A stretch of 64,000 nt of DNA from Escherichia coli O157:H7. GTDB lineage: Bacteria > Pseudomonadota > Gammaproteobacteria > Enterobacterales > Enterobacteriaceae. Positions 3,001 through 6,000 of the stretch are shown piece after piece. Position 1 is the stretch's first letter. Each line of letters begins with the position of its first letter. A program made the position numbers. The DNA lies in assembly GCF_013167455.1 (NCBI RefSeq), contig NZ_CP038328.1. One strand, given 5' to 3'.

Positions 3001-6000
3001 GAAGGATGACAGTCACATTTAAAAAATATTTAATCTATAGATCACAATGTAGGGTCATGGAATATATGTATACAACTATTTTCTTCTTCACTTTTAATTA
3101 TCGTATTCATTATAAAACTAAGTTAAAAAACTCCTGGAGAGTGAGTTATTAATATATTTTTAAATGAAATTAAGTTATCATTCATCGATGCATTTTATAG
3201 AATCATCAATGGCCATAATAGTACTATTAACTCTCAATTTTATATTTTTATCATCACTACAAATATTAACTGAATTTATATCAATGATTTTTTTTATTCT
3301 TATCTTTTATTTTATTTACTGTTTCAATGCAATCAGCGGCAAGTTGGAGTGGATTTAGATTTTTCAGATATGGTCTTATGATCTTTCCCTTACTTAATAA
3401 ATAGCATGTATAGGATTCGGAAAGTCCAGCATCTATTTTGTATCTCATTATATTAGATAAGGATGTGAGAAATTCCTTGTTATCATTCGCAGCCATATAT
3501 GCCAGTCCGAGTTCAGCCTCTGCGGCCTTACAGGCAAAATAGCTTAGTGAACACGCTTTTCGTCCCTCTTTAGTACTGGCTGATATTAGTGCCCATAATA
3601 TTGCTTTGTCTGCCAAATCTAACTCTCTCTGAAATTGTCTTGCAGTAACTGCACTCGCAGAAATAGAGAAAAAAATACAATTGTTAATAACCTTGCCATA
3701 TTTTTTAGTCCGTAACTGTTAATGTGCTATCTGGCTCTGAAAATATTAACTCATTTAATTTTTGCATGTCATTAGATAAACCAGTTATACAACCCTCGGA
3801 ACAGAATCGAGGTCCTAAAGACGGACCAAAAGCGTTTAAACAACTATGTATTGAAAATCCATTGCGATTATAAGTTCCTGTATTAACTGACGGTACTAAT
3901 CGTATGCCGTCAGGTTTTCTATTGCTTGCTCCCGGGTCATTAACATTCCAACTCCATAGGCCTTGAGATATTGGCCATCTATTTATAAATGTGTACAACG
4001 GGGATTATTTTTACATTGCATATTATTACCAGAAGCGACTGGAATACTAAGCACATCATAAAAATTATCATCACATGGTATATCTGAAACACACGAAAGC
4101 ATACCTAAAGTTATGCTGTATAAACAGGTGGCTAATCCCAAGGGGATCGATTCCAGAAATCGGGTTCAACGGATACTGATAAAAATTCCACCTACCTTCC
4201 AGCCCAATCGGAGCCTGAGTGTTATACCGCCCCTGCTGCGGTTAATGTTACCGATAATAGTTATAGTACAGCCCTGATTCATCATCATACTACTGCTGCG
4301 GCAGTCTGATGAACTATTGCTTTTACGGATTCTCCTTATTCTTCCTTCTATCCATTCGCTTTAGCTTTTTGAGCTCTTGAAGTTTGCTCTTTGCATCAAT
4401 ATTACCGTTATTTACAGCGAATTCCATCCAATAAATAGCTCTATTCAAATTATAATATTCTGATAATGTTGGATTTGTATCTGATAAAAAGACCCCATAA
4501 TTAAACTGCGCTGTAACATTCCCCTGAGATGCTGATTTTTCTAAGTATCGCAATTGTTTGTAAATGTTATTTTTAGTAAAGCAGTAATATTGATATAGTC
4601 GAAATGATGCCTCTGAATCACCATGTTGTGATTTATACTTCAGTTTCATCAACTTTTCTTCACTTAAATCATAGGTCATTGCTGTAGACCCCATCATACT
4701 TTCGTTTTGTTTTATTTTCACATCAGCACCATGCAATTGACAAATAAAAGAGAAATAAAAAAATAGTAACAAGCATGCTTTCATACATCTACAACCTATC
4801 TTATATCACTGGGTTTTTCTGGCGTACCTTGCATATTAGAAATGGGGTGCCCAGATGGCCCATATGTTATCCAATTACCAAGGTCTTTTGTTGTTATAGC
4901 CATTAGATCCTTATTTGAATTAAGGTTCGTTGGTGCTGTTAGCACTGTATCCATTTTTAACTTACCATTAGTTCCTCGCCCCCACCACGTCCATAGCGTG
5001 TCAGGTCCTATTACATTTGTATGTAACTCTTTAGCTAATTGGCTAGCAAATGAATTTTGTCCTTTACCTGTATTACAAGAAAATAACCAAACTGTCATCC
5101 CATCTTTATAATTCCCATCAAATTTAATTAGATATGCTAGATCTTTAGCTGTCATGATACTGCGCGTTGCGGATTCAATAGATGTGGGGGTACCATGCCC
5201 CCCGATTGTGAAAACGCCTGGGATATTAATCTCATCAGCTACAGAATGGATAAGATCACTTTCGGGGTATAAATTTATATCAACCAAACCTTGCGGATCT
5301 ACATTTATGACCGGATTCAACGGATACTGATAAAAATTCCATCCCCCCTTCAGTCCAATCGGATCCTGAGTGATATATCGCCCGTGCAGCGGGTCATAAT
5401 AGCGGTGGCGGTTGTAATACAGGCCGGACTCCTCATCATACTGCTGCCCCGGCAGGCGGATAAGCTGCTGCAGCTGATGCGGGTTCTCTTCATTCAGCAG
5501 GTTGCCCCATTCATCGTATTCTGCGCACCATTCTGTTGCCCCTTCCGCACTGATAAGCGCCAGCGGCAGGCCGCGATGGTCGCAGTGGTACAGGTGGATT
5601 TTTCGCGCCGGCGTGTATACCGGGTCCATCTGGCTTTGCATCTGCGCCACAGTCAGGCCGCACGATGCCAGCCAGCGGCGGCTTTCCTCACTCACCCGGT
5701 CAGCCAGGATTTCACTTTCCAGCCGGTCGAGCATCTGCACCAGCACCGGCGGGAACACCACACTGCCACCGTCTTCGCCGCCGGACTGCTGAAGCGCATC
5801 CGCCAGGCTGCGGCGCTGCGTTTTCGCCAGCTCACCGGTGGCGGTTTCAACCCTGATGAGTGGCGTGAAGCTCCCCGGCTGATAAATCGTCTGGATGCGG
5901 GTTCTGTCGTTCTGTATTGTGGTCAGCCGGTCGCCGTCCCAGCCGTACCAGGTCACTTGCGGTTTCCGTGACAGCGACATCCAGCCCGTCAGGTCCCGTT

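What the first reader, a model, noticed from the sequence alone, without database searches (positions are those of the whole stretch)
3700..4320. Decayed orphan rhs-CT module carrying a diverged copy of the rhs core 3' end
Bases ~4150-4320 repeat ~5300-5470 of rhsA (the PxxxxDPxGL-encoding junction) at roughly 80 percent identity on the same strand, but with a 1-bp insertion and in-frame stops, and nothing upstream that could supply a start. This is the signature of a displaced or orphan Rhs C-terminal cassette left behind after tip replacement by recombination. A separate 97-codon ORF (3705..3998, TTG start) sits where the orphan toxin body would be. Such cassettes are reservoirs of alternative toxin domains.
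Basis: seen in the sequence. Interest (0 to 1): 0.5.

Follow-up and report, generated by a model that had tools for sequence, protein, structure and literature searches.

The report
Dead orphan Rhs toxin-immunity cassette
This stretch of E. coli O157:H7 is the broken remnant of an old Rhs toxin tip (a cell-wall-attacking L,D-peptidase) and its immunity gene, pushed downstream when a newer tip was added; it is already annotated as pseudogenes (yibS/yibW/yibV in K-12) and is ordinary.

Summary
Window 4161-4310 repeats the 3' end of the full-length rhs core (5312-5461) at 78% identity, ungapped, E=3e-30. It lies on the same (minus) strand and carries in-frame stops.

The window is E. coli O157:H7 (100% identical to EDL933). 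The region corresponds exactly to the K-12 pseudogenes yibS, yibW and yibV.

The 97-codon ORF is not a separate gene. It is the C-terminal two thirds of one toxin domain of the Tlde1 / Tox-LD-peptidase type, with the catalytic His and S-x-G-Cys kept. A +1 insertion inside the DPxGL codons (~4146) and a -1 deletion (~3985) cut it off from the rest.

The gene downstream is the matching Imm57 immunity gene, which carries two frameshifts.

Other E. coli strains have the same module intact as an in-frame orphan. In some, such as strain Ec73552, it is fused to a full-length 1392-aa Rhs at this same locus, followed only by Imm57.

K-12 and O157 share all the toxin lesions. About 3,480 of 5,426 complete E. 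coli genomes carry this diverged allele, so sequencing error is excluded.

It is already known and of low interest.

The parts
4133..4322 (-). Remnant of the rhs core 3' end, about 63 codons ending in [13 protein letters not shown]. It has four in-frame stops (4314-16, 4290-92, 4248-50, 4242-44), a 1-bp insertion in the Asp-Pro codons at ~4143-4146, and no start codon. It corresponds to the 5' part of K-12 pseudogene yibS. PGAP annotates 4071-4289 as an 'RHS repeat-associated core domain' pseudogene.
3986..4132 (-). N-terminal third of the orphan toxin domain ([14 protein letters not shown]...CKNNPRCTHL). It is read in the +1 frame relative to the core remnant (the 52-aa ORF at 3983..4141) and carries a 9-bp in-frame deletion at ~4032 relative to the intact allele.
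3705..3998 (-). The 97-codon ORF. It is the C-terminal two thirds of the same Tlde1 / LD-peptidase toxin domain, with the catalytic motif HSC...SEGC. A 1-bp deletion at ~3985 separates it from the N-terminal part. It corresponds to most of K-12 pseudogene yibW and is not annotated by PGAP in EDL933.
3178..3699 (-). Remnant of the cognate immunity gene (Imm57, PF15596). It has a -1 frameshift in the signal-peptide codons (~3676) and a +1 in an A-run (~3295). The 111-aa ORF at 3281..3616 is K-12 yibV.
5283..5494 (-). The paralogous segment: the 3' end of the core of the full-length rhs gene (4796-9025), up to its own [13 protein letters not shown] junction.
4323..4784 (-). yibG (sel1-repeat protein), the presumed immunity gene of the currently attached tip. 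Its last codons NKENP* overlap the start of the orphan's core remnant.

Best explanation
Window 3178-4322 (minus strand) is a displaced, now dead, orphan rhs-CT/rhsI module. It was once the C-terminal tip of the Rhs protein encoded at the yibF-yibH (rhsA) locus.

The tip was an L,D-peptidase-fold toxin of the Tlde1 / Tox-LD-peptidase kind. By homology it is delivered by the type VI secretion system and attacks peptidoglycan peptide stems in the target cell's periplasm. It was paired with a signal-peptide-bearing Imm57 immunity protein.

A newer tip with its own immunity gene (the yibJ-type CT plus yibG) was recombined onto the core through the conserved sequence just upstream of DPxGL. This shunted the old tip downstream together with about 200 nt of core, and without a start codon.

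The unexpressed module then decayed. The core remnant drifted to about 76-81% identity with an A/T bias and acquired stops. The toxin acquired a +1 frameshift, a -1 frameshift and a 9-bp deletion. The immunity gene acquired two frameshifts.

Shown here: the homology, the lesions, the domain identities, the existence of intact and core-attached versions, and the layering across strains. Inferred: the order of events, the biochemical activity, and the lack of expression.
For: - Repeat of the core 3' end: 78% identity over 150 nt, E=3e-30; alignment.
- Frames and stops.
- EDL933 annotation: RHS core pseudogene plus frameshifted Imm57. K-12 annotation: yibS, yibW and yibU pseudogenes and 'PF15596 family protein YibV', at exactly corresponding coordinates.
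- Intact allele in HCM-27C-1: one frame runs from the core fragment through DPLGL to a 145-aa domain annotated 'tlde1 domain-containing protein', followed by a 173-aa Imm57.
- Pfam: Tlde1_dom E=5.3e-7 and Imm57 E=2e-44 on the intact allele. Weak YkuD/Tlde1 hits on the repaired O157 sequence.
- Lesions mapped against the intact allele and shared with K-12.
- Once indels are removed, the O157 toxin has no new stops. Substitutions are enriched at third codon positions (13/15/31), so most divergence predates inactivation.
- H99, S115, G117 and C118 are invariant in 37 relatives.
- AlphaFold model pLDDT 92.9. All 50 top Foldseek PDB hits are L,D-transpeptidase-fold proteins, mostly annotated L,D-transpeptidases or carboxypeptidases, with probabilities 0.60-1.00 (0.9 or higher for most). 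A profile search of PDB aligns the His and Cys motif with YkuD-type enzymes.
- The same tip is attached to a full-length Rhs at this locus and to Rhs proteins of 1378-1616 aa elsewhere.
- The O157 main tip equals the K-12 orphan yibJ.
- Literature: tip displacement model (PMC2935791); orphan rhs-CT/rhsI modules (PMC3150448); Tox-LD-peptidase with RHS repeats and Imm57 (PMC3482391); DUF2778/Tlde1 L,D-carboxypeptidase effectors, some fused to Rhs (bioRxiv 10.1101/2020.02.18.954545).
Against: - No expression or activity data were available, so 'silent and dead' is inferred from sequence alone.
- The Ec73552-type layout (tip attached, no orphans) could be derived by deletion rather than ancestral, so the direction of events is not proven.
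- The core remnant is more diverged (about 24%) than the toxin body is from the intact allele (about 12%). It also has a few residues (NYYR, PQxGRY) that resemble foreign Rhs cores. Part of its divergence may therefore reflect a different origin rather than decay.
- Sequence-only matches to solved L,D-transpeptidases are not significant (E about 0.5). Tlde1a itself was not among the top fold hits.
Confidence: 0.9

Rival explanations
1. The 97-codon ORF (or the 111-aa yibV ORF) is a functional stand-alone gene that has been kept, for example a truncated peptidase or a cytoplasmic immunity or decoy protein.
For: - The ORF retains the catalytic His and SEGC motif and has no internal stops.
- The allele is present in about 64% of complete E. 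coli genomes at 99% identity or better.
- Databases hold the 97-aa product (P0008, 480 member sequences).
- K-12 annotates yibV as a protein.
Against: - The ORF's 5' boundary is created by a frameshift inside one domain. It lacks the first ~50 residues of the fold (three beta strands and the invariant G35).
- It has a TTG start with no Shine-Dalgarno-like sequence upstream, by inspection. Promoter-like sites are not enriched (8 found against 9.4 expected).
- It has no signal peptide, although the homologous toxins act in the periplasm.
- yibV lacks the signal peptide of intact Imm57 and its last ~45 residues.
- High identity among genomes is what recent common ancestry gives. K-12 and O157 differ by a single SNP, so no selection test is possible.
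Confidence: 0.04
2. The core-like segment is not a decayed copy of this locus's own core. It is a piece of a different, foreign Rhs core subfamily that was imported together with the toxin tip.
For: - About 22-24% divergence is similar to the distance between E. coli rhs subfamilies (background in PMC2935791).
- The residues NYYR and PQQGRY resemble the NY[FY]RDYDPQxGRY of Rhs proteins that carry related tips.
- The module alleles differ by 7-12% while the flanking YibH protein is identical in EDL933, HCM-27C-1, ST2747, LR-28, XH990 and Ec73552.
Against: - None of 63 relatives' core ends scores higher against the remnant than against the E. coli main core.
- The remnant has four stops and a G/C-to-A/T substitution bias of 26:10, typical of neutral decay.
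- Intact alleles of the same tip carry an ordinary E. coli-type core fragment.
Confidence: 0.1
3. The module is a usable or phase-variable reserve. Slippage or recombination can restore it to an active toxin-immunity pair.
For: - Some lesions lie in or next to short homopolymer runs (A8 against A7 at ~3295, next to a T7 run at ~3676). The A-run length differs between lineages.
- A 26-nt identical stretch with the main core could support RecA-dependent recombination.
- The +1 and -1 frameshifts in the toxin cancel in net frame.
Against: - Restoration needs at least four independent indel reversions (two in the toxin, two in the immunity gene) plus a crossover.
- The two toxin frameshifts are not in long runs.
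- They are identical in K-12 and O157.
- Between the two toxin frameshifts the core frame is full of stops.
- A crossover in the shared 26-mer would still leave both toxin frameshifts downstream.
Confidence: 0.03
4. The stops and frameshifts are sequencing or assembly errors in an intact gene.
Against: The lesions are identical in K-12 MG1655, EDL933 and O111:H8, and thousands of independent complete assemblies match at 99% identity or better.
Confidence: 0.003

Closest known systems
Orphan (displaced) rhs-CT/rhsI modules of Enterobacteria (Jackson et al. 2009, PMC2935791; Poole et al. 2011, PMC3150448)
   Same: - A start-less fragment of core sequence upstream of DPxGL, then a variable toxin tip, then a small immunity gene.
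- Located downstream of a full-length rhs in the same orientation.
- The same tip is attached to full-length Rhs in other strains.
- In-frame stops in the retained core piece, as also described for a Yersinia orphan in PMC3150448.
   Different: Here both the toxin and the immunity gene are inactivated, so this is a relic and not a silent but intact module.
E. coli K-12 pseudogenes yibS (b4650), yibW (b4651), yibV (b4615) downstream of rhsA-yibA-yibJ-yibG
   Same: This is the same sequence, with one SNP in the toxin part and identical lesions. The coordinates correspond exactly: yibS to window 4071-4322, yibW to 3705-4069, yibV to 3281-3616.
   Different: O157:H7 lacks the K-12 top layer (the RhsA tip plus yibA). 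Its full-length core carries the yibJ-type tip directly, without the nonsense codon found in K-12 yibJ.
Tlde1 / DUF2778 (PF10908) T6SS effectors and Tox-LD-peptidase toxins with Imm57 (Sibinelli-Sousa et al. 2020, bioRxiv 10.1101/2020.02.18.954545; Zhang et al. 2012, PMC3482391)
   Same: - Pfam Tlde1_dom hit on the intact allele.
- Invariant His and S-x-G-Cys.
- Predicted L,D-transpeptidase fold.
- Rhs-fused architecture.
- Imm57 neighbour with a signal-peptide-like N-terminus.
   Different: - The His-to-Cys spacing (18 residues, with two extra cysteines) is like canonical YkuD enzymes, not the shorter spacing reported for Salmonella Tlde1a (H121 and C131).
- The immunity protein is Imm57, not the DUF2195 Tldi1 of Salmonella.
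- Activity is untested.
- The O157 copy is a pseudogene.
Salmonella Typhimurium orphan Rhs toxin activated by recombination with the main rhs gene (Koskiniemi et al. 2014, recalled from memory; related work PMC7043789)
   Same: A main rhs gene plus a downstream orphan sharing core homology that could mediate recombination.
   Different: The Salmonella orphan is intact and can be activated. This one would remain frameshifted after the same recombination.

Membership tests
Orphan rhs-CT/rhsI module | A fragment of rhs core coding sequence ending in the PxxxxDPxGL junction, lacking the N-terminal part and any start codon | tested here: met
   Window 4133-4322 aligns with the core 3' end at 5283-5494 (78-81% identity, E=3e-30). 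It ends in [13 protein letters not shown] and no start opens the frame.
Orphan rhs-CT/rhsI module | [quoted passage not shown] | tested here: met
   rhs 4796-9025 (-), yibG 4323-4784 (-), orphan 3178-4322 (-).
Orphan rhs-CT/rhsI module | A variable C-terminal toxin domain after DPxGL, unrelated to the attached tip, followed by a small immunity ORF | tested here: met
   The Tlde1-type domain is unrelated to the main tip ([10 protein letters not shown]...). An Imm57 remnant follows 5 nt after the toxin stop.
[quoted passage not shown]
   E. coli Ec73552 has a 1392-aa ORF ending in this tip at the same locus. PGAP annotates an 'RHS element core protein' over the same tip in PE164 (4179-nt CDS) and in E105, F2_81 and 2013C-4282 (row labels only). 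Tips about 50% identical sit on Rhs proteins of 1378-1616 aa.
[quoted passage not shown]
   This needs expression of the intact allele with and without Imm57.
Tlde1 / Tox-LD-peptidase toxin domain (PF10908; YkuD-like fold) | Significant match to the family profile | tested here: inconclusive
   The intact allele gives Tlde1_dom E=5.3e-7, 30.5 bits, and PGAP names it 'tlde1 domain-containing protein'. The indel-repaired O157 sequence gives only YkuD E=0.025 and Tlde1_dom E=0.032.
Tlde1 / Tox-LD-peptidase toxin domain (PF10908; YkuD-like fold) | Conserved catalytic His and Cys in an H...[S/T]xGC motif | tested here: met
   H99, S115, G117 and C118 are invariant in 37 relatives. They are retained in the O157 97-aa ORF (HSC...SEGC) and align with the HG...SHGC motif of solved L,D-transpeptidases.
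Tlde1 / Tox-LD-peptidase toxin domain (PF10908; YkuD-like fold) | L,D-transpeptidase fold | tested here: met
   For the intact allele only: AlphaFold pLDDT 92.9. All 50 best Foldseek PDB matches are L,D-transpeptidase-fold proteins, mostly annotated L,D-transpeptidases or carboxypeptidases, with probabilities 0.60-1.00 (0.9 or higher for most), TMq 0.40-0.58 and E 1e-3 to 0.2.
Tlde1 / Tox-LD-peptidase toxin domain (PF10908; YkuD-like fold) | L,D-carboxypeptidase or transpeptidase-exchange activity on peptidoglycan, and T6SS-dependent delivery | not testable with these tools
   Known for Salmonella Tlde1 only (bioRxiv 10.1101/2020.02.18.954545).
Imm57 immunity protein (PF15596) | Match to the Imm57 profile, adjacent to an LD-peptidase toxin | tested here: met
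   The intact allele gives Imm57 E=2e-44. PGAP annotates window 3178-3699 as an Imm57 family protein, frameshifted. K-12 YibV is named a PF15596 family protein. The association with Tox-LD-peptidase is listed in PMC3482391.
Functional protein-coding gene | An uninterrupted reading frame across the domain | tested here: not met
   Toxin: +1 at ~4146 and -1 at ~3985, plus four stops in the core remnant. Imm57: -1 at ~3676 and +1 at ~3295.

The most novel reading that the evidence does not exclude
The decayed allele is retained in about two thirds of E. coli genomes because one of its fragments has acquired a new role. Candidates are the 97-aa catalytic fragment and the leaderless 111-aa YibV. 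Possible roles are cytoplasmic immunity or a decoy against incoming LD-peptidase toxins, or regulation of the upstream rhs-yibG operon.
Probability: 0.03. Interest if true: 0.4.

Novelty: already known. Interest (0 to 1): 0.12.

Why it matters
It matters little beyond annotation.

It gives a clean worked example of Rhs tip stratigraphy at the rhsA locus. The oldest tip (Tlde1-type, with Imm57) lies nearest yibH, the yibJ/yibG layer lies above it, and K-12 adds an RhsA-CT/yibA layer on top.

It assigns a domain identity (L,D-peptidase toxin) to the K-12 pseudogenes yibS and yibW, and to the unannotated 370 bp between two PGAP pseudogenes in O157:H7.

It also shows that orphan cassettes are not always usable reserves, since this one is dead in most of the species.

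Tried and rejected
- NCBIfam scan of the 97-aa ORF, the intact toxin, the main tip and YibV: no family.
- Sequence search of solved structures with the single toxin sequence: only a chance hit, gelation factor at E=0.48. With a 37-sequence profile: only sub-threshold hits to two L,D-transpeptidases, informative for the motif alignment but not significant.
- Promoter and terminator scan of 3100-4900: no enrichment, and no promoter-like site upstream of the orphan on the minus strand.
- Word-indexed protein search with the intact tip returned only short or partial proteins, which at first suggested the tip is never attached. This was overturned by the exhaustive representative search and by the E. 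coli genome search with a longer core-plus-tip query.
- Tested whether the core remnant derives from a foreign Rhs core, by scoring it against the core ends of 63 relatives: none is closer to the remnant than to the E. coli core. My first regular-expression attempt was too strict and was discarded.
- Sequencing error was considered and rejected.
- Two scripts failed because some locus files were not yet available to the script machine. The work was redone with the translate and align tools.
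Full report
**Source and layout.** The window is E. coli O157:H7. Window 2700-4800 is 100% identical to many O157:H7 chromosomes, including EDL933. In EDL933 the RefSeq annotation (window coordinate = locus coordinate - 2301) reads as follows:
- yibI and yibH on the plus strand.
- On the minus strand, an 'Imm57 family immunity protein, frameshifted' pseudogene (window 3178-3699).
- An unannotated gap.
- An 'RHS repeat-associated core domain-containing protein; internal stop; missing N-terminus' pseudogene (4071-4289).
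- yibG (4323-4784).
- A 1409-aa 'RHS element core protein' (4796-9025).
- yibF.

**Observation.** blastn of 4050-4340 against the whole window finds one paralogous match: 4161-4310 against 5312-5461, 78% identity over 150 nt, no gaps, E=3e-30. MAFFT extends the homology to about 4127-4340 against 5283-5494 (81% column identity, one 3-nt gap).

In the Rhs frame the segment reads [56 protein letters not shown]. The main gene reads [60 protein letters not shown]. So it is a true copy of the core end through the PxxxxDPxGL junction, with stops at 4314-16, 4290-92, 4248-50 and 4242-44.

Differences from the main core are biased from G/C to A/T (26 against 10). GC content falls from 53.8% to 44.8%, and the longest identical run is 26 nt. 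No start codon opens the frame. The homology begins inside the last codons of yibG: NKENP* aligns with the core's NEENPH.

**What follows the junction.** After DPLG the core frame runs into stops. A +1-shifted frame is open for 52 codons ([15 protein letters not shown]...CKNNPRCTHL), and then the original frame reopens as the 97-codon ORF at 3705..3998.

Other E. coli carry a 90-92% identical allele that is intact. In strain HCM-27C-1 a single frame runs from a core fragment through DPLGL to a 145-residue domain, which PGAP calls 'tlde1 domain-containing protein' (WP_072020486.1). It is followed 4 nt later by an intact 173-aa Imm57 gene.

Relative to that allele, O157 has these differences:
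- +1 bp within the Asp-Pro codons of DPLGL (~4146).
- An in-frame 9-bp deletion (~4032).
- -1 bp at ~3985.
- In Imm57, -1 bp in the signal-peptide codons (~3676) and +1 bp in an A-run (~3295).

The 97-aa ORF is therefore the C-terminal two thirds of one toxin domain and is not a separate gene.

With indels removed, the O157 toxin has no further stops. Its 59 substitutions fall 13/15/31 by codon position, giving 23 synonymous and 27 non-synonymous codon changes. Most divergence from the intact allele therefore accrued under constraint, and inactivation is comparatively recent.

**Not an artefact, and already annotated.** K-12 MG1655 carries the same stops and indels, with a single SNP across the toxin part. 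There the region is annotated as pseudogenes yibS (b4650) and yibW (b4651), 'PF15596 family protein YibV' (b4615) and pseudogene yibU. The coordinates map exactly onto window 4071-4322, 3705-4069 and 3281-3616.

In total, 3,293 complete genomes match window 3150-4320 at 99% identity or better. With the intact toxin as query, 3,484 of 5,426 genomes have their best match in the 80-90% band, which is the decayed allele. About 200 match at 90% or better.

An O111:H8 strain shares the toxin lesions by annotation and the signal-peptide frameshift, but still has the A7 run. Decay was therefore stepwise.

**Identity of the toxin and the immunity protein.**
- Pfam gives Tlde1_dom (PF10908) E=5.3e-7 for the intact allele. 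It gives only weak YkuD and Tlde1 hits for the repaired O157 sequence. Imm57 (PF15596) scores E=2e-44.
- An exhaustive search found 169 relatives. In an alignment of 37 of them, H99, S115, G117 and C118 are invariant. These residues survive in the O157 97-aa ORF as HSC...SEGC.
- A profile search of PDB sequences gives only sub-threshold hits. Both are L,D-transpeptidases, aligned on exactly this His/Cys motif.
- An AlphaFold model of the intact tip is confident (pLDDT 92.9). All 50 best Foldseek PDB matches have the L,D-transpeptidase fold, and most are annotated L,D-transpeptidases or carboxypeptidases. Probabilities are 0.60-1.00 (0.9 or higher for most) and TMq is 0.40-0.58, although E-values are only 1e-3 to 0.2.
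- The literature fits. Zhang et al. list Tox-LD-peptidase (conserved H, S, C) with RHS repeats and the immunity families Imm16 and Imm57 (PMC3482391). Sibinelli-Sousa et al. showed that Salmonella Tlde1 (DUF2778) is a periplasm-acting T6SS L,D-carboxypeptidase, and noted Rhs-fused members (bioRxiv 10.1101/2020.02.18.954545).
- The intact Imm57 begins MARLLTIVLFFSISANA, which by inspection is a signal peptide. This is consistent with a periplasmic target.
- One difference from Salmonella Tlde1a: the His-Cys spacing here (18 residues) is that of canonical YkuD enzymes.

Relatives about 50% identical sit at the extreme C-terminus of Rhs proteins of 1378-1616 aa, directly after DPxGL-type junctions.

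Within E. coli, a search with a longer core-plus-tip query found genomes where PGAP annotates an intact 'RHS element core protein' over the tip. In strain Ec73552 a 1392-aa ORF at the same yibF-yibH locus ends in ...[15 protein letters not shown]...SEGCITG...TVTD*. It is followed only by an intact Imm57 and then yibH. PE164 has the same layout, with a 4179-nt RHS element core protein CDS.

Intact but unattached orphans also occur. Some are bounded upstream by ISEc1. One is at the rhsB locus.

**Layering.** The tip now attached to the O157 core (4796-5285) is identical to the K-12 orphan yibJ, except that K-12 has a CAA-to-TAA nonsense codon. K-12 and O111 have an additional top layer consisting of the RhsA tip and yibA.

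The order from the core outwards is therefore newest to oldest, with the Tlde1/Imm57 layer next to yibH. This matches the C-terminal displacement model of Jackson et al. (PMC2935791) and the orphan rhs-CT/rhsI concept of Poole et al. (PMC3150448). I cannot exclude that the single-layer Ec73552 layout arose by deletion.

**Function now.** Nothing suggests activity.
- No start codon opens the module.
- Promoter-like sites are not enriched (8 against 9.4 expected).
- The toxin is cut into three frames, and the immunity gene has lost its signal peptide and its tail.
- A RecA crossover in the 26-nt identical stretch would remove the upstream stops but leave both toxin frameshifts.

In O157 and K-12 the cassette is therefore a relic and not a reserve.

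**Verdict.** The feature is a known kind of element and is already annotated, so interest is low.

Noticed in passing
window 4796-5285 (-), compared with K-12 L006 6222-6923: The C-terminal tip attached to the full-length O157 Rhs is the same sequence as the K-12 orphan pseudogene yibJ. The K-12 copy carries a CAA-to-TAA nonsense codon. K-12 and O111:H8 have an extra RhsA-CT/yibA layer that O157 lacks.
   Followed up: partly
L011 6001-10179 (E. coli Ec73552); also L012 (PE164): At the same yibF-yibH locus these strains have a full-length Rhs carrying the Tlde1-type tip, followed only by Imm57. This may be the ancestral layout. In PE164 the Imm57 gene is annotated as frameshifted although the toxin is attached, which would be self-harmful unless it is an assembly error in a homopolymer run.
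   Followed up: partly
window 4323-4340 (-): The last five codons and the stop of yibG (NKENP*) align with the Rhs core sequence NEENPH. The yibG reading frame therefore ends inside the next orphan's core remnant, and this marks the module junction.
   Followed up: no
window ~3295 (A-run in the Imm57 remnant): The run length is polymorphic. It is A8 in O157 and K-12, and A7 (as in the intact allele) in an O111:H8 strain, so the second Imm57 frameshift is younger than the first.
   Followed up: partly
L005 (strain D8, nikR-yhhJ / rhsB locus); L008 (RIVM_C039205, rpmE-metJ region): The Tlde1/Imm57 orphan also occurs at the rhsB locus. A second copy of the yibJ-type rhs, a sel1 gene and a core remnant occurs at another chromosomal site, cut by an ISAs1 element. 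This indicates movement of whole module stacks between rhs loci.
   Followed up: no
window 3178-4322 compared with L002, L007, L009, L011: The decayed and intact alleles of the module differ by 7-12% in DNA. The adjacent YibH protein is identical (WP_000364939.1) in EDL933, HCM-27C-1, ST2747, LR-28, XH990 and Ec73552. The two module alleles are therefore much older than, or were imported independently of, their flanks.
   Followed up: no
window 2720-3177: This is an AT-rich (33% GC) spacer between yibH and the Imm57 remnant. It corresponds to the K-12 region holding pseudogene yibU. Intact-allele strains often have a complete ISEc1/ISAs1 element inside the rhs stack.
   Followed up: no
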